A stretch of 64,000 nucleotides of DNA from Escherichia coli. Its GTDB lineage: Bacteria; Pseudomonadota; Gammaproteobacteria; Enterobacterales; Enterobacteriaceae. Location: the NCBI RefSeq assembly GCF_048403405.1, contig NZ_CP183129.1; one strand, 5' to 3'. Of the stretch, positions 2,968 to 52,303 are shown piece by piece; the first letter of the stretch is position 1; each line of letters begins with the position of its first letter. The notes below the pieces were generated by a model. That model saw only the letters and a list, made by a program, of their open reading frames with translations. It was not told where the DNA came from and ran no database searches. The position numbers were made by a program, and so were the translations under genes.

Positions 2968-3117
2968 ACCCCGTCTCCCGTTATCCGGAAGCTGACAACA
3001 ATAAAAAAAGCCACCAGTTAAGTACTGATGGCTCTGATAACTCATGCAGGCATCTCAGACGACCCACTGACACTACCGGTGAGTTTAACGATACCTTCCA
3101 TTTGGCTGGCTCACTTT

Positions 3118-4971
3118 TTATGATGATGCCGGTGCATTTATCTCCAGCACCAGACTTTCTATCTCAACGCCATACGCTGCATTTTTGGTAATATCCGTCA
3201 GCGTCAGCGCATTCAGCCCCAGTGTCAGACTGTCTTTTATGACCTGGAATGCCGGGCCAGCCACTCCATTCAGTTTCGGAGTAACCGTGGCACTGCCGGC
3301 GGTGAACACCAGCTCCAGCGTCTGCCAGTCGTTACTGTAATTCCCGAACTCGCCCAACTTTGTGTTTCCTGCTTTCTTGTGATGCATCAGATTCAGTTTG
3401 CCGTCTGTGGTCTGGGTGAAGAACGACATCAGGAACGGGTTACCAGTCCCGGTCATCGCCACGACGTCAGGTAACGCTACATCGGTATACAGATAAATTC
3501 CCAGACCGAACTGATTGTTGGTCAGTGCGCCTGACAGTCGAAACTTACAGCTCAGTCTGCCACCCCGTGTCAGCAGGGAGACTGCGTCATCCACCGGGCG
3601 CGTCAGGGACCAGGCTTTATTGCTCTGCTTGGTGATCTTAAATACACCATCTGACAACTGAATTCCGCCATTCTTAATGCTCCAGCCCTGCGCAGCAGCG
3701 TCTCCGGCTGTCGGCAACAGGGAGATTGTGCGTATGGATGCATCTTCAGACGGCCCCGATGGCGTGTCGCCGCCGGGCGAGAGTTTGATTTCCGGTGCCT
3801 TACCACTAATGAAGGCTAAGGTGCGACCGGCTACGTTCAGAATAGCAGTTGCCATACGATCGGGAATAATGCCACGACGCGCCCATGAGCTGAAATGCGT
3901 CGGGCGATTTGATGATACCCAGTTTTTGTTCGTTCGGGATGCCGAACCGTAATAACCAGACCCGACAATATCAGGATCTTCTGACGGGTTGTTTGTCGGT
4001 GTATTAACTCCGCTACCATCGGTCATAAAGGGAACAAAATAAATCTGCTGGGATTCTTTACCTTTATATGCACCATATACCACTTCATATTGCGTACCGT
4101 GTTCTTGTTTCCACGCGTATGTCGTGTCGCCACAAATCCAGGGGACTGATGCCGGACTTCCACCGTGACACTGCGCTGCCAGCCCGGCAAGGTCAGCACG
4201 GAACTGCTGTACCATTGCAAGAAATGCTGCTGGCTGCTGGGCGTAACTGGCATTCGTCATATCGAATTCCCCCTGCATCCAGCATATCGCCAGCAAAACG
4301 TTTTTCGGGTTTTTCTGCAATGCTGCCTTCGTGCGGAAAAGCAGATCCTGATATAACGGCTTACCCACTCCCCAGCGAGCCGAATCCTGACTGGCTCCCG
4401 TGGACTCGCTGAATGTCCCCTCCGTGCCCTGGGTGAATGCCGAACCACCACGACAGCATGGTACCAGCAGGATCCCCGCATTATTAGGGATATACGGAAG
4501 CAGTTTTTTGGCAATATGTAAGCCCTGTCCGACACAGCCGTACTGCCCTTTGCTCAGGTCAGCCCGGGGATGGTTAATCGTACTCATATCCTGAACATCA
4601 TGCAGACAATGGTCAGCAGGAATGATGTCGTTAAATACGCATACTTCACCACCGGGAGTCACTGTGTTACGACGGGCCAGTTGCTTAATGCGCGGATGGG
4701 GCGCATCGTATGAATCCGGAAGCGGAAGCCCTTCACCGTAAGCCATGGCATTGGATTGCCCGGCCAGTACGATGACGTAGTACCACTCCGGCTCAGTTGC
4801 ACCACTGACGACCACATCACCTTCTGCTGCAATCGCCTGCATCAGGGTATAAGGGGTTATGGCCACCGGACTACCAAACGGCTGCCAGCCCTCCTTCAGT
4901 TTTTGTGTCAGTCGTTTCGCAAGGTCTGACGGCGATGCCGCCCTGACCACGTCATAGTGTTTAAATGCCAT
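3118..4971 (-). CDS. nanS: prophage sialate O-acetylesterase (NanS-p-like, SGNH hydrolase)
   Basis: 617-aa protein with GQSN motif (VLAGQSNAMAYG) near N-terminus and long C-terminal beta-rich region; sits between the tRNA cluster and holin as in Stx phages. Confidence 0.75.
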   Translation of the reverse strand: MAFKHYDVVRAASPSDLAKRLTQKLKEGWQPFGSPVAITPYTLMQAIAAEGDVVVSGATEPEWYYVIVLAGQSNAMAYGEGLPLPDSYDAPHPRIKQLARRNTVTPGGEVCVFNDIIPADHCLHDVQDMSTINHPRADLSKGQYGCVGQGLHIAKKLLPYIPNNAGILLVPCCRGGSAFTQGTEGTFSESTGASQDSARWGVGKPLYQDLLFRTKAALQKNPKNVLLAICWMQGEFDMTNASYAQQPAAFLAMVQQFRADLAGLAAQCHGGSPASVPWICGDTTYAWKQEHGTQYEVVYGAYKGKESQQIYFVPFMTDGSGVNTPTNNPSEDPDIVGSGYYGSASRTNKNWVSSNRPTHFSSWARRGIIPDRMATAILNVAGRTLAFISGKAPEIKLSPGGDTPSGPSEDASIRTISLLPTAGDAAAQGWSIKNGGIQLSDGVFKITKQSNKAWSLTRPVDDAVSLLTRGGRLSCKFRLSGALTNNQFGLGIYLYTDVALPDVVAMTGTGNPFLMSFFTQTTDGKLNLMHHKKAGNTKLGEFGNYSNDWQTLELVFTAGSATVTPKLNGVAGPAFQVIKDSLTLGLNALTLTDITKNAAYGVEIESLVLEINAPASS

Positions 4972-5164
4972 GAATCCTCCCGGGCGGGATAATGTTGTGA
5001 GTCAGATAAGGAGCAGGCTGAAGTCCGGAAGTTACAGGACAATGGCAGAAGGGAGACTACAGCCCGCAATTCGAAAAAGACCGCGCAGTTGCGCAGAGTG
5101 ATTACTATGGGGTATTATTCGCCAGCTGAAATATTACTTCACGTTTTATTGTTTATTCCTTGCC

Positions 5165-5193
5165 GCCCGCGTCTCCCAGCGCGGGCTTTTTTT
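5165..5193 (+). terminator. intrinsic terminator oriented for the plus strand
   Basis: gcccgcg / cgcgggc 7-bp stem, 8-nt loop, then ttttttt. Confidence 0.6.
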
Positions 5194-5202
5194 GTCCATA
5201 AG

Positions 5203-5436
5203 AAAGCCCCTCCGGAGAGGGGCTAAAGCCGCGTATCTGTATCATCATGCACATGGTGCCGGGTGCCTCCCGGTGAGTTCAGCCCGGTGCCACTAAACCC
5301 GCGTCATTCTCGTTTTGATAATCAGAGATTATACCGTCACCAGTCGCCCCTCCGCTCAGGGGGATTCACCATGCGAAATTTTTTTAACAAATGCCCAGTC
5401 TGACAGGCAACTGTCAACTTACTGAATTGTGAGCAA
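5203..5436 (-). repeat. copy 1 of a tandem ~220-bp structured element (candidate sRNA unit)
   Basis: Direct repeat of 5690..5904 (roughly three-quarters identity by eye); shares the hairpins agcccctc-cgga-gaggggct and ggtgccgggtgcctcccggtga; on the minus strand the unit ends in hairpin plus T-tract. Confidence 0.6.
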
Positions 5437-5689
5437 CATAGCATTTAACGGGGAACCTGTTTTCTGCAGTAAAAAGGCCCACCGGAGCGGATGGGCCTGG
5501 AAGGATAGCGGTCATGTGATGCCGGTTTCCCGGTAACTCAGCACCGGTATCTGAGTCAACGTTTTCTCTACTGGGTCATTTCCGATACGCCCTGCCTGCT
5601 GACAGGCTTTCATCACATCTGAAAATATAGCACCCTGACTGATACTGTAGTACCTAAGGTTCCAGAAACTGTGATGTATCCGGCACAGA

Positions 5690-5904
5690 AAAGCCCCTCC
5701 GGAGAGGGGCTGGAGAGTGGCGCTATGTGCCATTGCATGGTGCCGGGTGCCTCCCGGTGAATTCAGTACCAGCACCTGAATCCGCGATTATCCCATATAC
5801 CTACTCGCTGATTGCCCCTCCGCACAGGGGGATTCACCATGCCAGTTTCTTTTAACAAACTCCCCGCAAACCAGACAACAGTCAACCGCCTGAATTGTGA
5901 GACA
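5690..5904 (-). repeat. copy 2 of the tandem structured element
   Basis: Same hairpin set and shared segments (gggggattcaccatgc, tgaattgtgag) as copy 1. Confidence 0.6.
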
Positions 5905-5945
5905 TTTAAAAAAAAGCCCGCAAAAGCGAGCCAGGGAAAATAAGT

Positions 5946-6022
5946 GTGGCGCGTTGTACTGGATTCGAACCAGTGACCGATTGCTTAGAAGGCAATTGCT
6001 CTGTCCGGCTGAGCTAACAACG
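5946..6022 (-). tRNA. argO: tRNA-Arg (anticodon UCU), phage argO-like
   Basis: Reverse complement folds as canonical cloverleaf: acceptor GCGTTGT/ACAACGC, anticodon loop CTTCTAA, T-loop TTCGAAT, 3' CCA. Confidence 0.85.
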
Positions 6023-6035
6023 CAGGATACAGATA

Positions 6036-6113
6036 ATGGACCGCCTTCGGGGACCCGAACTCCGCGCAACCAGCTTCGAAGGCTGGCGCTCTTTCCTGAT
6101 GAGCTAATGGCGG
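6036..6113 (-). tRNA. argN: tRNA-Arg-like (anticodon UCG inferred), phage argN-like, possibly degenerate
   Basis: Cloverleaf with anticodon stem CCAGC/GCTGG and loop CTTCGAA, but one acceptor mismatch, one T-stem mismatch and atypical T-loop TTCGGGT. Confidence 0.6.
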
Positions 6114-6120
6114 TATGTGA

Positions 6121-6196
6121 TGGTGGCCCTTGCTGGATTTGAACCAGCGACCTGGCGATTATGAGTCGCTCGCTCTCACCACTGAGCTAAAGGGCC
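6121..6196 (-). tRNA. ileZ: tRNA-Ile2-like (anticodon CAU), phage ileZ-like
   Basis: Reverse complement GGCCCTTTAGCTCAGTGGTGAGAGCG...CTCATAA...TTCAAATCCAGCAAGGGCCACCA closely resembles E. coli ileX as recalled. Confidence 0.85.
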
Positions 6197-6245
6197 GGAA
6201 GCAGAATAATAATGGTGCGTAATTAATTCTGCAATCTCATCCGTT

Positions 6246-6572
6246 TCAAACGATTAAATCCTGAACTTCCCTGACTGTCTGCTCAAAACGTCCGGTCTCC
6301 AGTTCAACGCCAATCGCACGACGCCCGAGCGCCAGTGCCGCTTTTACCGTTGAACCTGAGCCCATAAAAAAATCTGCAACCAGGTCTCCCGGACGACTGC
6401 TTGCGCTGATTATCTGCTGCAGCATTTCTGCCGGTTTTTCGCACGGATGTTTCCCGGGATAGAACTGCACCGGTTTATGCGTCCAGACATCGGTATACGG
6501 CACCTGCGCTGTCACGCCAAAATACCGCCGCAGTCGGCATTCACAACCACAAGCGTGTTTAACGTACTGCAC
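6246..6572 (-). pseudogene. 5'-truncated DNA methyltransferase remnant (C-terminal half only)
   Basis: Carries HPCEKP and FMGSGST motifs but no upstream DPPY-type catalytic motif; in-frame stop 2 codons upstream of the GTG; only ~110 bp to the next gene. Confidence 0.6.
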
Positions 6573-6682: not shown

Positions 6683-7426
6683 CTAATCTGACGTCACACG
6701 CACCATTATACTTACTAAAGAAAAGTCATCATCAGGTCCGGCTCTCTCTATACGACGCAAAATACCATTAGAAAACTTCTGACTATTACTCATAGTATTT
6801 GATGTAAATCTGGGGCGTTTTTCCCAAACGTTATGAACTCCATCAGACATGATACACAGATGATACAACCCGTTAATACCAGGCAAATCTTTCCACGGGA
6901 TAAAATCACAGTCGTATTCCATATCAACATTTGAGGCTATGGCAGTCGTTAAGATATTTTTTCCCGGTTTATTCTTCAAATCTCTGGGTTTAAAAATATT
7001 CTGATCAATTAACATCTGATGTCTGGTATCGTCCTTCGTCAATTGATATGCTTTCTTTTCTCCAATGCAATACAAGCGACAATCACCAATATGACCAATA
7101 ATAATTCCGCTATCACAAACATAACAAAAGGTAAGTGTAGTAGCAGCTTTATCGAACTCATCATTAACTTCAGCTAACGACATAACTTTTCGCTTAACTT
7201 CAGCAAATACATTCGGAACTGCATCAAAAGATAAACTTGTCAATGCTGAAAGTTCAGCGATTGCCATGGATGAAGCATAACTGGCACCAGAGTATGAACC
7301 TACACCATCAGCTACGGCAAATAAGATGCCGTCTCCTACAATTTTTGGAGGAAGCAATGAATCTTCGTTGACCCTACCTGGTTCTTTTGGATACGAGAAT
7401 GATGAAGTCGCTATCAGCTGAATCAT
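6683..7426 (-). CDS. PP2C-family (PPM) Ser/Thr protein phosphatase
   Basis: Motifs NEDS, FAVADGVGS, GHIGDCR, MSDGV in PP2C order; ATG with AAGGAG Shine-Dalgarno; 103 bp downstream of the kinase gene. Confidence 0.8.
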   Translation of the reverse strand: MIQLIATSSFSYPKEPGRVNEDSLLPPKIVGDGILFAVADGVGSYSGASYASSMAIAELSALTSLSFDAVPNVFAEVKRKVMSLAEVNDEFDKAATTLTFCYVCDSGIIIGHIGDCRLYCIGEKKAYQLTKDDTRHQMLIDQNIFKPRDLKNKPGKNILTTAIASNVDMEYDCDFIPWKDLPGINGLYHLCIMSDGVHNVWEKRPRFTSNTMSNSQKFSNGILRRIERAGPDDDFSLVSIMVRVTSD

Positions 7427-7529
7427 GACTCACTCCTTAAAAAAGAATGCGCAAAATCAAACGCCACATCATCTATTGTCTGATATCTATCATCTTTATC
7501 CATCCTTGTGCACTTAGCTATGATAGGCT

Positions 7530-8186
7530 TTATTTTTTATCATCTAAATTTAAGTCTTCAATTAACCGTCCCACAGCATAAACATCAGTCTTAACTGAAT
7601 ACTCTGCATTATATAAAATCTCGGGAGCCATATATCTTGTACTTCCCATACGGGTACCGATCTCGGTCAATTTAGTGGTATCCCCTTCGGGATTCGTATC
7701 TTTTACCAGACCAAAATCAGACACCTTGTATGTTCCGTCGCTAAATCGCAAAACATTAAAGGGTTTTATATCTCTGTGTAAATAGCCTTTGGCATGGATG
7801 TAAGCTACACCATCTAATACCATTTTCACTATTGAAATTTTTTGATCTGTTGTAAGAAGGTTGTTCGTTATTTCGTGCTCAAGATCACATTCTGCTTTAT
7901 CCATAATGAACCATGGATTCTCAACAAACAAATCGCACAAATAAATAGGAACAATATTGCTATGTACGCAATGTGATTGATACACAACCTCCCTTTTAAA
8001 ACGCCTTCTAAACTGCTCTATTTGCGCCAAAAGCTCTGGTTTTTCGGGTGCTAAAACCTTTCTAGCATAATCCCCGCATTCACCTTTATTGAGGTTGTAA
8101 ACCTTAACGTGTTCAACAAAGCCAAATGCCCCTCTTCCAATCAACTGAATTCGTTTTATAAAGTAATTACCGTGCTGTTCTTCCAT
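7530..8186 (-). CDS. Hanks-type (eukaryotic-like) Ser/Thr protein kinase
   Basis: Gly-rich loop GRGAFGFV, catalytic loop HRDIKPFN, DFG (VSDFGLV) and APE (YMAPEIL) motifs; start taken at internal ATG 8186 because the ORF's TTG start lies inside the upstream terminator hairpin. Confidence 0.8.
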   Translation of the reverse strand: MEEQHGNYFIKRIQLIGRGAFGFVEHVKVYNLNKGECGDYARKVLAPEKPELLAQIEQFRRRFKREVVYQSHCVHSNIVPIYLCDLFVENPWFIMDKAECDLEHEITNNLLTTDQKISIVKMVLDGVAYIHAKGYLHRDIKPFNVLRFSDGTYKVSDFGLVKDTNPEGDTTKLTEIGTRMGSTRYMAPEILYNAEYSVKTDVYAVGRLIEDLNLDDKK

Positions 8187-8258
8187 TAAGCTCACCGACC
8201 TAAATTGTAACAATATCCATATATTACAACTACAGATAAAAAGGTCCACAGAGTTAAG

Positions 8259-8287
8259 CAAAAAACCCGCACATTTGAGCGGGTTTA
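8259..8287 (-). terminator. intrinsic terminator immediately after the Q-like gene (tR'-like)
   Basis: Minus strand aaacccgc-tcaaatgt-gcgggtttttt. Confidence 0.6.
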
Positions 8288-13001: not shown

Positions 13002-13157
13002 TTACTCCTCAGGTTCGTAAGCTGTGAAGACAGCGACCTCCGTCTGGCCGGTTCGGATTCGTACCTCGCAGAGGTCTTTCCTCGTTACCAGTGCCGTCAC
13101 AATGACGGTTAAACAGATGACGATCAGGGCGATTAACATCGCCTTTTGCTGCTTCAT
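13002..13157 (-). CDS. hokD: Hok/Gef-family type I toxin (HokD/RelF-like), with overlapping mok-like leader ORF to 13214
   Basis: MKQQKAMLIALIVICLTVIVTALVTRKDLCEVRIRTGQTEVAVFTAYEPEE matches HokD as recalled. Confidence 0.85.
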   Translation of the reverse strand: MKQQKAMLIALIVICLTVIVTALVTRKDLCEVRIRTGQTEVAVFTAYEPEE

Positions 13158-13394
13158 AGCCTGCTTCCCCTTGCCTTTCGGCACGTAAGAGGCTAACCTA
13201 CATTTGTGAGACATAGATTGGGCCTCAGATTAATGTTAAGCGTCTTGCAGGACGCGAAATGTTAACTGGGGCTTTTCTCTATCTGCCTTTCAGTGTTCAT
13301 GCCTGAGACAGATAGCCTCAAGCACCCGCAGCCATTCTACTTAACTCACGTCACCTCGCCAATATGAAATCAATCAGAAAGGTGATCCATAAAA

Positions 13395-21529: not shown

Positions 21530-21587
21530 TTTCTGGTGACATTTGGCGGTATCAGTTTTACTCCGTGACTGCTCTGCCGCCCTTTTT
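21530..21587 (+). ncRNA. dicF: DicF small RNA
   Basis: tttctggtgacatttggcggtatcagttttactccgtgactgctctgccgcccttttt is near-identical to K-12 DicF as recalled, including terminator hairpin. Confidence 0.85.
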
Positions 21588-34077: not shown

Positions 34078-34762
34078 AAATGCGCCTATAAGGCTCTCTT
34101 ACCAGCCGCGCCCTAACAGGCGCACACGATCTGACATTTGCATCCAACTTCGTTACTTACGGCCCGTAAACGGGCTGCCCGGATAGGGAATCGATAACTG
34201 CTCTCCCATTTTATCCTCTTCAAGCTGGTGCTTTATGTAATCCTGTATCTTCGCCGTGTTCTTACCCACCGTATCGACGTAGTACCCTCTGCACCAGAAC
34301 TCCCTGTTCCTGTATTTGAATTTCAAATCACCAAACTGCTCGTAAAGCATCAGACTGCTTTTCCCTTTCAGATATCCCATAAAGCCGGATACGCTCATTT
34401 TGGGCGGGATCTCCACAAGCATATGGATATGATCTGCACAGCATTCAGCTTCCAGAATCCGTACACTTTTCCACTCACACAGCTTTCTCAAAATACTGCC
34501 TATTGCTCTACGCTTCTCTCTGTAGAACACCTGTCTTCGGTATTTTGGCGCAAAAACTATGTGATATTTACAGTTCCATCGGGTGTGCGCTAAGCTCTTT
34601 TCGTTCCCCATTGGGACCCCCTTTTGATTTCTTGTTTGACACTTGCAGTTGCCAGACCGCAAGGTGTTTTAACAAATCAAAAGGGGTTTTAATAACTGGC
34701 TTAAAGCTGAAAGCTTTCCGGAACCCCCAGCCTAGCTGGGGGTTTTCTGTGCACAAAAAAGG
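34078..34762 (-). mobile_element. IS200-like insertion sequence (IS200/IS605 family), boundaries approximate
   Basis: Single Y1 transposase ORF; hairpin ccccagc-cta-gctgggg near the tnpA-upstream end; occupies a short intergenic in K-12. Confidence 0.65.
34153..34611 (-). CDS. tnpA: IS200-type TnpA (HUH/Y1 transposase)
   Basis: 152 aa from MGNEKSLAHTRW; HxH motif (ADHIHMLVEIPP) and conserved Tyr region. Confidence 0.85.
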   Translation of the reverse strand: MGNEKSLAHTRWNCKYHIVFAPKYRRQVFYREKRRAIGSILRKLCEWKSVRILEAECCADHIHMLVEIPPKMSVSGFMGYLKGKSSLMLYEQFGDLKFKYRNREFWCRGYYVDTVGKNTAKIQDYIKHQLEEDKMGEQLSIPYPGSPFTGRK

Positions 34763-51737: not shown

Positions 51738-51822
<85 letters not shown>

Positions 51823-51856
51823 TCTCAAGCATTACCTCAAAATTTGAATTACCCTT

Positions 51857-51941
<85 letters not shown>

Positions 51942-52007
51942 TCACTTTCAAAAGTCCCTGAACTCTCAAACGAATCCGTAATTAAATATTCTGCCCAAGC
52001 GGGGAAG

Positions 52008-52097
52008 GATGAGAAGCTTCGACCAAGGTTCGACTCGAGCGCCAGCGAGAGAGCGTTGCCGCAGGCAACGACCCGAAGGGCGAAGCGCGCAGCGCTG
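52008..52097 (+). CDS. tpr: protamine-like protein Tpr in the tyrT operon 3' region
   Basis: 29-aa [32 protein letters not shown] followed by partial tRNA 3'-end repeat. Confidence 0.6.
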
Positions 52098-52303
52098 AGT
52101 AATCCTTCCCCCACCACCATCACTTCCTGTAAATACTCAAAACCTGTTACTCCGAGCTAATTCTGCCCAATGGCACCGCGTTTACCGGACCTACAATATC
52201 CTCCCCTGAAGTTCGGATAAGCGAAGCGCATCCGACAACTCACCCCGTACCGTGCCCATAAAAAAACCCCGCCGAAGCGGGGTCTATGCAAACTAAAATT
52301 CGC

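What the first reader, a model, noticed from the sequence alone, without database searches (positions are those of the whole stretch)
5160..5905. Tandem pair of ~220-bp structured elements with terminators between the phage tRNAs and nanS, and no stx
Two direct-repeat units share several hairpins and conserved single-stranded segments. On the minus strand (the late-transcription direction) each unit ends in a GC-rich hairpin plus T-tract, so each could be a discrete small RNA of roughly 200 nt. A strong convergent plus-strand terminator (5165..5193) abuts copy 1. The locus is where Stx phages encode toxin, and no stxA/stxB-like ORFs are present. No protein-coding potential is apparent; the only long ORF (5512..5775) looks spurious.
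Basis: seen in the sequence. Interest (0 to 1): 0.6.

Follow-up and report, generated by a model that had tools for sequence, protein, structure and literature searches.

The report
Tandem STnc100 prophage small-RNA genes
The two repeats are copies of a small-RNA gene family already catalogued as STnc100 (EcOnc27/sRNA103 in E. coli O157, related to PasD), sitting with a third diverged copy and a short convergent small-RNA gene at the spot where Shiga-toxin phages carry their toxin; the locus is real but ordinary.

Summary
On the minus (late-transcription) strand, between the phage tRNA genes and nanS-p, lie two repeat units that each end in an intrinsic terminator. There is no stx gene.

Both units match Rfam RF02076 (STnc100) over the full model, at 165 and 136 bits against a gathering score of 47. 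In Stx2 phages the same element lies 75 nt after stx2B. There it overlaps the Hfq-binding RNA EcOnc27/sRNA103, and the EPEC sRNAs PasD1/PasD2 are relatives.

The convergent plus-strand terminator is the 3' end of a fourth gene. It occupies the slot that AsxR fills in Sakai prophage Sp5. It is near-identical (~95%) to an EPEC RIL-seq sRNA whose EHEC homologues are EcOnc08/21/42. This "sRNA dyad at the moron site" was described in 2014.

Three details go beyond what the papers I read describe:
- A diverged third unit (5470-5618) with the same fold lies between the two copies.
- Compensatory changes support the closing helix and a pseudoknot in the conserved core.
- The constant core is joined to more than 50 unrelated 3' tails.

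The exact 861-bp locus is in hundreds of E. coli genomes. Verdict: already known, low interest.

The parts
5907..5932 (-). Intrinsic terminator that closes the phage tRNA operon (Ile2/Met-Arg-Arg). It marks the upstream edge of the sRNA cluster.
   Evidence: stem 5932-5915, then a T run; tRNAs.
5890..5901 (-). Conserved 12-nt box CTCACAATTCAG at the 5' edge of repeat unit B. Homology with the Stx2-phage locus begins here.
   Evidence: Alignment. The same box precedes unit A and the Stx2a, Sakai and PhiR5_2 copies. Its function is unknown. It may mark the 5' end of the longer 235/247-nt isoform seen for EcOnc27.
5849..5878 (-). Predicted sigma-70 promoter of unit B: -35 TTGTCT (5878-5873), 18-nt spacer, extended -10 TGT-TAAAAG (5857-5849).
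   Evidence: Read from the sequence. The same geometry occurs in most of 105 distinct upstream regions of family members. The PasD2 5' end from RNA-seq coverage maps 8 nt after the homologous -10.
5684..5842 (-). Unit B, an STnc100-family sRNA. Core 5842-5735 (helix P1 is GCAUGGUG/CACCAUGC), single-stranded tail 5734-5712, terminator 5711-5692, U tract to 5684.
   Evidence: Rfam RF02076 match at 5681-5871, 136.3 bits against a gathering score of 47, E 4.5e-31. Terminator.
5624..5632 (-). Predicted extended -10 (TGC-TATATT) of the middle unit.
   Evidence: Sequence. It is invariant between the two alleles, which are 86% identical, while the spacer upstream of it is the most variable stretch.
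5470..5618 (-). Middle unit, a strongly diverged paralogue with the same architecture. P1 is AUGUGAUG/CAUCACAU. The P2 hairpin is drawn as GCCUG-UCAG-CAGGC by the MFE fold, with CUGUC-AGCA-GGCAG as an alternative register. A hairpin with a pairing loop follows, then P5 (CCGG-GAAA-CCGG), tail 5513-5499, terminator 5498-5475 and a U tract.
   Evidence: Weak Rfam STnc100 match at 5469-5642 (30.1 bits, E 7e-4, below the gathering score). The MFE fold reproduces the family architecture, z -2.6. Present in 672 of 5426 complete E. coli genomes as two alleles. Allele differences keep the P2 and terminator stems paired but cost one pair near the outer end of P1.
5422..5433 (-). The CTCACAATTCAG box at the 5' edge of repeat unit A.
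5381..5410 (-). Predicted sigma-70 promoter of unit A: -35 TTGCCT (5410-5405), 18-nt spacer, extended -10 TGT-TAAAAA (5389-5381).
   Evidence: homology with the PasD2 5' end.
5197..5374 (-). Unit A, an STnc100-family sRNA. Core 5374-5251, tail 5250-5225, terminator 5224-5205, U tract to 5197.
   Evidence: Rfam RF02076 match at 5194-5403, 165.4 bits, E 1.5e-38. Terminator.
5089..5118 (+). Predicted promoter of the convergent short sRNA: -35 TTGCGC (5089-5094), 18-nt spacer, -10 TATTAT (5113-5118).
   Evidence: Sequence. The -35 lies in the block shared with Sakai Sp5, where the AsxR cassette starts just downstream of it.
5125..5193 (+). Convergent short sRNA (~69 nt if the predicted promoter is used). 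Seed-like CCUUGCC at 5158-5164, terminator stem 5165-5186, U tract 5187-5193. It occupies the AsxR/AgvB slot of the 'sRNA dyad'.
   Evidence: Near-identical (~95% by eye in the alignment) over this stretch to the EPEC RIL-seq sRNA 'E2348C_1409.E2348C_1408.IGR', whose EHEC homologues are EcOnc08/21/42 and whose target motif is GGCAAGG. Fold z -3.8. No match to Rfam AsxR or AgvB, although both models detect the Sakai copy.

Best explanation
The region is a cluster of four prophage-encoded small-RNA genes in the 'moron' site of a lambdoid, Qin-like prophage that carries no stx. The site lies downstream of Q and the phage tRNAs and upstream of nanS-p and the lysis genes.

Three genes lie head to tail on the late strand: unit B, a diverged middle unit, and unit A. 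All three belong to the STnc100 superfamily (EcOnc27/sRNA103 in O157; PasD1/PasD2 are relatives).

Each unit appears to have:
- its own sigma-70 promoter ending a few bases before the closing helix P1;
- a constant, highly structured 105-125-nt domain (P1, hairpin P2, a hairpin whose loop pairs with the strand after P2 to form a pseudoknot, and hairpin P5);
- a 15-26-nt single-stranded tail that differs between units;
- an intrinsic terminator with a U tract.

A fourth, short (~70 nt) sRNA gene converges on unit A from the plus strand, so the two terminators abut.

Inferred mechanism:
1. In the lysogen, each unit is transcribed on its own and terminated.
2. The RNA is bound by Hfq through the terminator/U tract.
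3. It acts in trans by base pairing through its variable 3' tail, so the three units would address different targets.
4. The constant domain serves as a stable scaffold, or has an unknown extra role.
5. During lytic growth, Q-modified RNA polymerase reads through all these terminators into nanS-p and the lysis genes.

Shown here: family membership, anatomy, covariation and conservation. Inferred from homologues: expression, Hfq binding and trans action.
For: Family membership:
- Rfam STnc100 matches at 165.4 and 136.3 bits (gathering score 47), full length, plus a weak third match.

Same locus in Stx2 phages:
- The order is tRNAs, stx2A, stx2B, STnc100 (75 nt after stx2B), a convergent short sRNA, then nanS-p.

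Literature on homologues:
- EcOnc27 overlaps STnc100 (PMC12711010). It is recovered by Hfq CRAC, runs at ~235/247 nt on Northern blots, and its 247-nt form is destabilised without hfq (PMC4104026 supplement).
- Tree et al. describe convergent sRNA pairs at the moron site of at least eight Sakai prophages.
- PasD1/PasD2 are 172-173 nt, confirmed by Northern blot with Hfq-dependent stability, and have RIL-seq targets through a seed in the 3' tail.
- PasD and STnc100 have been proposed to share an ancestor (bioRxiv 10.64898/2026.05.13.724894).

Promoter:
- The PasD2 5' end coincides with the first base of P1, 8 nt after a TAAAAA -10.
- A promoter-like element is found at that position, with the -10 ending 7-10 nt before TGGTG, in 79 of 105 distinct upstream sequences, including mutually unrelated ones.

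Structure:
- The outer P1 pairs covary (A-U 11 / G-C 10; C-G 10 / U-A 6). All four pseudoknot pairs that were scored change on both sides. Overall 92% of cells are paired, and 37 cells change on both sides against 13.7 in shuffles (0 of 500 shuffles reach this).
- For both the pseudoknot and the hairpin that carries it, each RNA's own (cognate) strand pairs better than strands swapped in from other members (0 of 2000 permutations each).

Modularity:
- 94 of 122 distinct 3' modules have a terminator, mostly after a 20-29-nt tail.
- There are 51 unrelated tail clusters on the constant core, and 77 pairs of cores at least 95% identical that carry different tails.

Gene order and strand come from RefSeq annotation of an identical locus.
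Against: - There are no expression data for this strain or these exact alleles.
- The 5' end is uncertain: P1 by analogy with PasD2, about 29 nt upstream in the Rfam model, or near the CTCACAATTCAG box if the 235/247-nt EcOnc27 size applies.
- Single-sequence MFE folds of units A and B are not clearly better than shuffles (z -1.6 and -0.6, folded from a start 6 nt too far downstream).
- No target is known for any of the three tails. The only reported effects of EcOnc27/sRNA103 are on fimZ and espA after overexpression, with the mechanism unclear.
- Trans pairing through the tail does not explain why a pseudoknotted domain is so strongly conserved.
- The invariance of P2 and of inner P1 in my alignment is partly forced by the search pattern used to collect sequences.
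Confidence: 0.72

Rival explanations
1. The units are cis-acting leader elements, riboswitch-like or attenuator-like. The conserved pseudoknotted domain would sense a ligand or factor and decide whether transcription stops at the unit's terminator or continues into nanS-p and the lysis genes. The tandem copies would sharpen the response, as in tandem riboswitches. The 'sRNAs' would then be terminated leaders.
For: - The layout is promoter, then a closing helix a few nt after the start site, then a complex conserved junction with a pseudoknot, then a variable 3' platform ending in an intrinsic terminator.
- Tandem arrays recur in several genera.
- In this window the units are co-oriented with nanS-p, holin and lysozyme.
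Against: - There is no conserved complementarity between the terminator's 5' arm and the P5/P1-3'/tail segment: mean z -0.25, with only 3 of 94 below -2.
- The same three-unit array is followed by an opposite-strand gene (iraM) in strain CREC-629.
- A convergent sRNA gene sits between the last unit and nanS-p.
- PasD has many trans partners in RIL-seq through its tail.
- No riboswitch family in Rfam matches.
Confidence: 0.1
2. The constant domain itself is the active part. It would be a decoy or binding platform for a host or phage protein (or for another RNA), and the variable tail would merely be whatever lies before the terminator.
For: - Extreme conservation of junction and loop nucleotides (GGUGAAU, UCACCGGGAGGCACCCGGCACC) across at least 15 genera, on otherwise unrelated flanks.
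- The pseudoknot is kept by compensatory change.
- The tails are replaced freely.
Against: - The PasD seed and its target motif map to the tail, not the core.
- The Hfq CRAC peak of EcOnc27 covers the 3' 80 nt.
- PasD2 and the middle unit change the 'invariant' P2 and P5 sequences yet are kept and, for PasD, expressed.
Confidence: 0.1
3. The repeats are duplicated promoter/terminator debris left by recombination at the moron site. Their only role is as transcription stops that insulate the lysis genes in the lysogen.
For: - The locus is mosaic. The single copy in the Stx2a phage combines the 5' part of unit A with the tail of unit B.
- Four terminators lie on the late strand within 750 nt: those of the tRNA operon and of units B, middle and A.
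Against: - Covariation maintains long-range helices that a terminator does not need.
- The promoter-like element is conserved at a fixed distance.
- The three-unit array is kept as two alleles 86% identical, with changes that preserve structure.
- Homologues are abundant Hfq-bound transcripts.
Confidence: 0.06
4. The region encodes small proteins: ORF 5512-5775 on the minus strand, and the plus-strand ORFs 5263-5403 and 5727-5855 that annotators sometimes call.
For: - The translations match PHROG families of unknown function (phrog_23557 at E 7e-30; phrog_24488 at E 4e-11).
- RefSeq carries a pseudo 'hypothetical protein' antisense to unit B.
Against: - Those PHROGs are 55-aa families without function and cover only the part of each ORF that overlaps the conserved RNA.
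- Between alleles, the first 34 codons of ORF 5512-5775 fall in the most variable spacer, and conservation runs on past its stop codon to the terminator.
- ORFs on both strands of the same repeat are 'conserved', which is the expected result for a conserved RNA gene.
Confidence: 0.02

Closest known systems
STnc100 (Rfam RF02076), which overlaps EcOnc27 / sRNA103 of E. coli O157:H7
   Same: Units A and B match the full model well above the gathering score. They have the same position (after the moron, before nanS-p and the lysis genes), the same core helices, and the same terminator-ended layout. The Sakai Sp5 copy scores 207.7 bits and aligns along the whole core.
   Different: Here the gene is present three times in tandem, with one copy strongly diverged, and no stx lies upstream. 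The tails and terminators differ from the Sakai allele. Unit B carries the tail found in many Stx2a phages, and unit A a different one.
PasD1 / PasD2 of EPEC E2348/69 (EHEC homologue EcOnc13)
   Same: Same superfamily architecture and the same promoter geometry. PasD2 also lies directly upstream of a nanS-p type esterase gene.
   Different: PasD2 reaches only 41 bits on the STnc100 model. Its P2 is altered, it lacks the P5 hairpin, and it has its own tail (seed UGUGAG) and terminator. Reported PasD copies are distal to one another, not tandem.
The 'sRNA dyad' at the lambdoid moron site: EcOnc27 with AsxR in Sp5, and EcOnc06 with AgvB (Tree et al. 2014)
   Same: A long sense sRNA and a short convergent sRNA with abutting terminators, between the late promoter and the lysis genes. 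The flanks of the short gene are shared with Sp5.
   Different: The short partner here is not an AsxR/AgvB anti-sRNA; there is no Rfam match to either. It belongs to the type seen as 'E2348C_1409.E2348C_1408.IGR' in EPEC (EHEC homologues EcOnc08/21/42), with seed CCUUGCC. The sense partner is triplicated.
Tandemly duplicated sRNA genes such as OmrA/OmrB and PrrF1/PrrF2
   Same: Adjacent paralogous sRNA genes, each with its own promoter and terminator. A conserved part is combined with a divergent part (from established knowledge; cited as a contrast to PasD).
   Different: In OmrA/B the seed end is the conserved part and the rest diverges. Here the large structured domain is constant and the 3' tail next to the terminator varies.
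Tandem riboswitches (a resemblance in layout only)
   Same: A conserved pseudoknotted domain next to the promoter, followed by a variable segment and an intrinsic terminator, repeated in series.
   Different: No conserved antiterminator was found. The downstream context is variable or even on the opposite strand. Relatives have trans targets.

Membership tests
Rfam RF02076 STnc100 | Covariance-model score at or above the curated gathering score (47 bits), over the full model length | tested here: met
   Unit A scores 165.4 bits and unit B 136.3 bits, both covering model positions 1-206. The middle unit does not meet it (30.1 bits, E 7e-4).
Rfam RF02076 STnc100 | Conserved core helices: the closing helix, the C-rich hairpin, and the CCGGG-AGGCA-CCCGG hairpin | tested here: met
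   cmscan alignments. In an alignment of 23 diverse members, 92% of cells are paired.
Rfam RF02076 STnc100 | Expressed as a discrete small RNA | not testable with these tools
   Known only from homologues: EcOnc27 at ~235/247 nt on Northern blots and PasD at 172-173 nt.
Lambdoid moron-site sRNA dyad (Tree et al. 2014) | Located between Q / late promoter and the lysis genes, on the late strand, at the site where morons such as stx insert | tested here: met
   The order is Q 9028-8333, tRNAs 6196-5947, the sRNA units, nanS-p 4971-3118, then holin, all on the minus strand. The layout is collinear with Sp5 and an Stx2a phage.
Lambdoid moron-site sRNA dyad (Tree et al. 2014) | A convergent short sRNA gene whose terminator abuts that of the sense sRNA | tested here: met
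   The plus-strand terminator 5165-5193 lies 4 nt from the end of unit A's U tract (5197). It is homologous to an EPEC sRNA supported by RIL-seq.
AsxR / AgvB anti-sRNA families (RF02703, RF02702) | Match to the conserved ~42-nt 3' region of the anti-sRNAs | tested here: not met
   No match at E up to 10 in 5060-5210. The same models score 88 and 41 bits on Sakai Sp5. The alignment shows a cassette replacement.
PasD1/PasD2 | Near-identity to the E2348/69 PasD sequence, including its tail seed UGUGAG and its GGCUGCGCA terminator | tested here: not met
   By eye, the PasD2 sequence shows a different P2, no P5 hairpin, and a different tail and terminator compared with the window units. PasD2 scores 41 bits on STnc100.
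Transcription-terminating riboswitch / attenuator | A conserved alternative (antiterminator) pairing between the sensor's 3' part and the terminator's 5' arm | tested here: not met
   In 94 distinct 3' modules the mean z was -0.25 against shuffled arms, with 3 of 94 below -2.
Transcription-terminating riboswitch / attenuator | A co-oriented regulated gene consistently lying downstream | tested here: inconclusive
   Co-oriented nanS-p lies downstream here and in Stx phages. In CREC-629, however, opposite-strand iraM follows the same array, and a convergent sRNA gene intervenes here. I made no systematic survey.

The most novel reading that the evidence does not exclude
The constant 105-125-nt domain may be a dedicated functional RNA module with a specific partner (a protein, a ligand or RNA polymerase), rather than a passive scaffold. 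The features that prompt this reading:
- It consists of P1, P2, a loop-to-linker pseudoknot and P5.
- Its junction nucleotides hardly change across at least 15 genera of Enterobacteriaceae.
- It is joined to more than 50 unrelated 3' tails.

Under this reading, STnc100-type units would be two-part regulators, and the tandem arrays would be a phage device for delivering several differently addressed copies of the same module. In the papers I read, nobody has assigned a role to this domain, and I did not see the pseudoknot described.
Probability: 0.15. Interest if true: 0.6.

Novelty: already known. Interest (0 to 1): 0.2.

Why it matters
It matters little as a discovery. The family is curated in Rfam, its O157 and EPEC members have been detected experimentally, and the locus layout was published in 2014.

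It is useful as annotation. RefSeq leaves this 975-nt stretch either empty or labelled 'hypothetical protein', although it holds four likely sRNA genes. About 6% of complete E. coli genomes carry this exact arrangement, and about 12% carry the middle unit.

The side observations give a concrete handle on an open question stated in the literature: why these sRNA dyads sit between the late promoter and the lysis genes, and what the large conserved domain does. Those observations are the third hidden paralogue, a pseudoknot supported by covariation, and a constant domain joined to freely exchanged tails.

Tried and rejected
- **AsxR/AgvB identity of the convergent gene.** Rejected: there is no Rfam match, although the models detect the Sakai copy.
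- **OmrA-B identity** (25 bits, below the gathering score of 40). I treat this as a generic hit to a terminator plus U tract.
- **PasA/PasC between nanS-p and holin.** The PasA probe sequence is absent from the window even with 3 mismatches. Only a sense-strand terminator is there.
- **Protein-coding reading of ORF 5512-5775 and the antisense ORFs.** Only function-less PHROGs match, and conservation follows the RNA boundaries rather than the ORF boundaries.
- **Riboswitch-type antiterminator.** No signal.
- **Single-sequence folding of units A and B.** This was uninformative. The MFE mixes the C-rich P2 with the near-repeat terminator, giving z -1.6 and -0.6, and my start coordinates were 6 nt short. 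One batch fold call failed on the length limit.
- **Column-based counting of the pseudoknot and of the hairpin before P5 on the MAFFT alignment.** Register shifts blurred the counts, so I also scored each RNA's own strands against strands swapped in from other members, which needs no alignment.
- **The promoter scanner.** It missed the unit promoters because it requires T at the last -10 position. I scanned for them with my own script (a first version crashed).
Full report
**Context.** The window reads a lambdoid prophage backwards. RefSeq annotation of an identical locus in E. coli VR50, together with the ORF and tRNA scans, gives this order on the minus strand:
- antiterminator Q (9028-8333)
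- a Ser/Thr kinase (8261-7530)
- a PP2C phosphatase (7426-6683)
- a truncated methyltransferase (6572-6246)
- tRNA-Ile2/Met(cat), tRNA-Arg(tcg) and tRNA-Arg(tct) (6196-5947)
- a 975-nt gap without credible ORFs
- the SASA/nanS-p esterase (4971-3118)
- holin and lysozyme

The finding lies in the gap. This is the position where Stx2 phages carry stx2AB. In an Stx2a phage and in Sakai prophage Sp5 the order is tRNAs, stx2A, stx2B, one repeat-like unit, then nanS-p.

The repeat finder returns three direct-repeat families 468-487 nt apart: 88 nt at 80% identity, 31 nt at 97% and 22 nt at 100%. The terminator scan finds ten terminator-like sites in 4800-6400, against 1.5 expected. They include minus-strand terminators at 5711-5692, 5498-5475 and 5224-5205, and the plus-strand one at 5165-5186. 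No ORF between the tRNAs and nanS-p exceeds 93 aa, so there is no stx.

**Identity.** Against Rfam 15, the two units match RF02076 (STnc100) on the minus strand over the full model:
- 5194-5403: 165.4 bits, E 1.5e-38
- 5681-5871: 136.3 bits, E 4.5e-31

The gathering score is 47. A third, weak match (5469-5642, 30.1 bits, E 7e-4) lies between them.

The literature places this family exactly here:
- STnc100 lies 75 nt downstream of stx2B in Stx2 phages (PMC12370729).
- It overlaps EcOnc27 (sRNA103 in EDL933), an Hfq-binding sRNA (PMC12711010).
- EcOnc27 was recovered by Hfq CRAC, runs at ~235/247 nt on Northern blots, and its 247-nt form is destabilised without hfq (PMC4104026 supplement).
- Zhu, Shabalina and Storz propose that the EPEC sRNAs PasD1/PasD2 and STnc100 share an ancestor (bioRxiv 10.64898/2026.05.13.724894).
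- PasD1/PasD2 are 172-173 nt, were confirmed by Northern blot, and have RIL-seq partners through a seed in the 3' tail (PMC8550237).

I confirmed the collinearity directly. Sakai Sp5 has STnc100 (207.7 bits) immediately followed by the convergent AsxR gene (88 bits) between stx2B and the nanS-p homologue. Its flanks align with the window.

**The convergent terminator is a gene.** Tree et al. described 'convergent sRNA pairs' at the moron site of at least eight Sakai prophages. In the window, the AsxR slot holds a different cassette. It is near-identical (~95% by eye in the alignment) to the EPEC locus 'E2348C_1409.E2348C_1408.IGR'.

That EPEC locus is a RIL-seq sRNA candidate. Its partners include the cfa 5'UTR, and its target motif GGCAAGG is complementary to CCUUGCC. 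Its EHEC homologues are EcOnc08/21/42.

In the window:
- CCUUGCC is at 5158-5164, directly before the terminator.
- A promoter (-35 TTGCGC at 5089-5094, 18-nt spacer, -10 TATTAT at 5113-5118) predicts a ~69-nt RNA at 5125-5193.
- The fold is a clean terminator behind an open seed region, z -3.8.
- It does not match Rfam AsxR or AgvB.

**The middle unit.** From 5618 to 5470 on the minus strand, the MFE structure reproduces the family architecture with almost every stem rewritten (z -2.6):
- P1: AUGUGAUG/CAUCACAU
- a P2 hairpin
- a hairpin that could pair, through its loop, with the strand after P2 (UAUCGG/CCGGUG by eye; the MFE fold pairs that strand differently)
- P5: CCGG-GAAA-CCGG
- a 15-nt tail and a terminator

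An extended -10 (TGC-TATATT, 5632-5624) lies 5 nt upstream of P1. The unit occurs in 672 of 5426 complete E. coli genomes, as two alleles 86% identical. The differences between alleles cluster in the non-transcribed spacer. Within the RNA they keep the P2 and terminator stems paired, and the single change in the pairing loop (G to A) turns a G-U pair into an A-U pair; one change (U to C) does break a pair near the outer end of P1.

The same B-middle-A array occurs in phage PhiR5_2 and in strain CREC-629. In CREC-629 it is followed by iraM on the opposite strand rather than by nanS-p. The array is therefore an old, portable module, not a recent duplication.

**Anatomy of a unit.** I collected 153 distinct units from viral contigs, species-representative genomes and the loci above, using an exact pattern in P1-P2. 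They come from at least 15 genera of Enterobacteriaceae. Tandem arrays with ~257-nt spacing recur, for example three in a row in Superficieibacter and two in Leclercia.

- **Promoter.** A promoter-like element (TTGnnn, 17-18 nt, TAAAAA or TAAATT, often preceded by TGn) is found with its -10 ending 7-10 nt before TGGTG in 79 of 105 distinct upstream sequences, including mutually unrelated ones. The RNA-seq 5' end of PasD2 falls on the first base of P1, 8 nt after its TAAAAA.
- **Predicted RNAs.** By homology, unit B would be about 5842-5684 and unit A about 5374-5197. The longer EcOnc27 species and the Rfam model boundary leave room for an upstream start near the conserved CTCACAATTCAG box.
- **Covariation in the alignment.** On 23 representatives (under 90% identical), the outer P1 pairs covary (A-U 11 / G-C 10; C-G 10 / U-A 6). 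The four pseudoknot pairs scored all change on both sides. Overall 92% of cells pair, and 37 cells change on both sides against 13.7 in shuffles (0 of 500 shuffles reach this).
- **Alignment-free test.** I compared each RNA's own (cognate) strand pairs with strands swapped in from other members. The pseudoknot appears in at least seven sequence versions at a fixed position: CUGGUG/CACCGG, AUCAGC/GCUGGU, CCAGUC/GACUGG, GCUAGGC/GUCUAGC, UUAACC/GGUUAA, CCAGAC/GUCUGG and ACCAGUUA/UAACUGGU. The hairpin that carries it also covaries. In both cases 0 of 2000 permutations reach the observed score.
- **Caveats.** The invariance of P2 and of inner P1 in this sample is forced by the search pattern. The controls do not remove phylogenetic relatedness.

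**Modularity.** After the P1 3' strand come a tail, mostly 20-29 nt, and a terminator; 94 of 122 distinct 3' modules have one by a simple rule. The 45 nt after P1 fall into 51 clusters at 75% identity. Seventy-seven pairs of cores that are at least 95% identical carry different tails.

The window shows this directly. Unit B has the tail found on the single copy of many Stx2a phages, while that phage copy has unit A's promoter and downstream flank. Sakai has yet another tail and terminator.

This matches the way PasD works, with its seed in the tail. It suggests that the three units address different targets. Their tails are AAUGGCACAUAGCGCCACUCUCC, GACCGCUAUCCUUCC and GCAUGAUGAUACAGAUACGCGGCUUU. 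Two of them end in C/U-rich stretches that could pair with ribosome-binding sites; this last point is inference.

**Mechanism.** The best-supported reading is four independently transcribed sRNA genes that stop at their own terminators.
- **In the lysogen:** they are Hfq-associated and act in trans through their variable single-stranded segments.
- **During lytic growth:** the late polymerase, modified by Q, reads through their terminators, as is established for lambdoid late operons.

What I showed here is membership, anatomy, covariation and distribution. Expression, Hfq binding and trans action are inferred from EcOnc27, PasD and the EPEC homologue of the short sRNA.

I considered four rivals:
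- **Riboswitch-like cis regulator.** It has no conserved antiterminator, and it is contradicted by the opposite-strand neighbour in CREC-629 and by the intervening convergent gene.
- **Core-centred decoy or binding platform.** It is attractive because of the conservation, but untested.
- **Recombination debris.** It is contradicted by the covariation and the conserved promoters.
- **Small proteins.** The only support is function-less PHROGs built on translations of this same DNA, and the conservation pattern follows the RNA boundaries, not the ORF boundaries.

**Novelty.** The two units are members of a curated family, in a published arrangement. The exact 861-bp sequence is present at 100% identity in at least 25 complete genomes. 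At least 80% of it is present in 351 of 5426 genomes, and some match to it occurs in 2906.

In the papers I read I did not see the following described:
- the cryptic third paralogue, and hence a triple array;
- the pseudoknot;
- the quantified 'constant domain plus exchangeable tail' pattern.

These are incremental. I file the finding as already known, with low interest. There is a modest chance that the conserved domain hides a specific function.

Noticed in passing
window 5181-5193 and 5909-5921: A perfect 13-nt inverted repeat (GCGGGCTTTTTTT / AAAAAAAGCCCGC) brackets the whole sRNA array. One arm is in the plus-strand sRNA terminator and the other in the tRNA-operon terminator. It may simply reflect two similar terminators, or it may be a recombination handle for the module.
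   Followed up: no
window 5081-5096 (-): A further terminator-like hairpin on the late strand (CTGCGCAACTGCGCGG followed by TCTTTTT) lies in the leader of nanS-p and overlaps the predicted -35 of the convergent sRNA. The hairpin and the block around it are conserved, with a few substitutions, in the Sakai, EPEC and Stx2a-phage loci.
   Followed up: partly
window 5727-5852 (+), 5263-5403 (+), 5512-5775 (-): Public annotation places ORFs on this RNA locus. RefSeq has a pseudo 'hypothetical protein' antisense to unit B. PHROG families 23557 and 24488 (unknown function, 55 aa) match translations of the repeat. These protein families are probably artefacts of a conserved RNA gene.
   Followed up: partly
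L002 3034-3235 (Stx2a phage) versus window units A and B: The single STnc100 copy of many Stx2a phages is a mosaic. Its promoter, 5' part and downstream flank resemble unit A, its tail and terminator are identical to unit B, and its central variable hairpin region is its own.
   Followed up: partly
L131 1373-1912, L145, L149, L176, L178 (Superficieibacter, Leclercia): In other Enterobacteriaceae, units of the same family stand directly head to tail at ~257-nt spacing, up to three in a row. Tandem arrays are therefore a recurrent feature of the family.
   Followed up: no
window 6683-8261 (-): A Ser/Thr protein kinase and a PP2C phosphatase gene pair sit between Q and the phage tRNAs, another moron in the late leader. 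A truncated DNA methyltransferase follows at 6246-6572.
   Followed up: no
window 2999-3040 (-): The 150-nt gap between nanS-p and holin, where EPEC carries PasA on the opposite strand, has no PasA-like sequence here. It holds only a sense-strand terminator (GCCATCAG...CTGGTGGC followed by TTTTTTT).
   Followed up: partly
window 13152-13327 (-), 21531-21582 (+), 34621-34744 (-), 51738-52119 (+): Other Rfam matches above the gathering score in the window: sok (next to hokD), DicF, STnc490, and two tRNAs (51738-51819, 51857-51938) followed by RtT. DicF, sok and hokD fit a Qin-like prophage; the chromosomal site was not determined.
   Followed up: no
L127 (E. coli CREC-629) 1315-1972: The same three-unit array occurs in a different prophage context. 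It is preceded by a DUF3927 gene and a single tRNA, and followed by the anti-adapter gene iraM on the opposite strand instead of nanS-p.
   Followed up: partly
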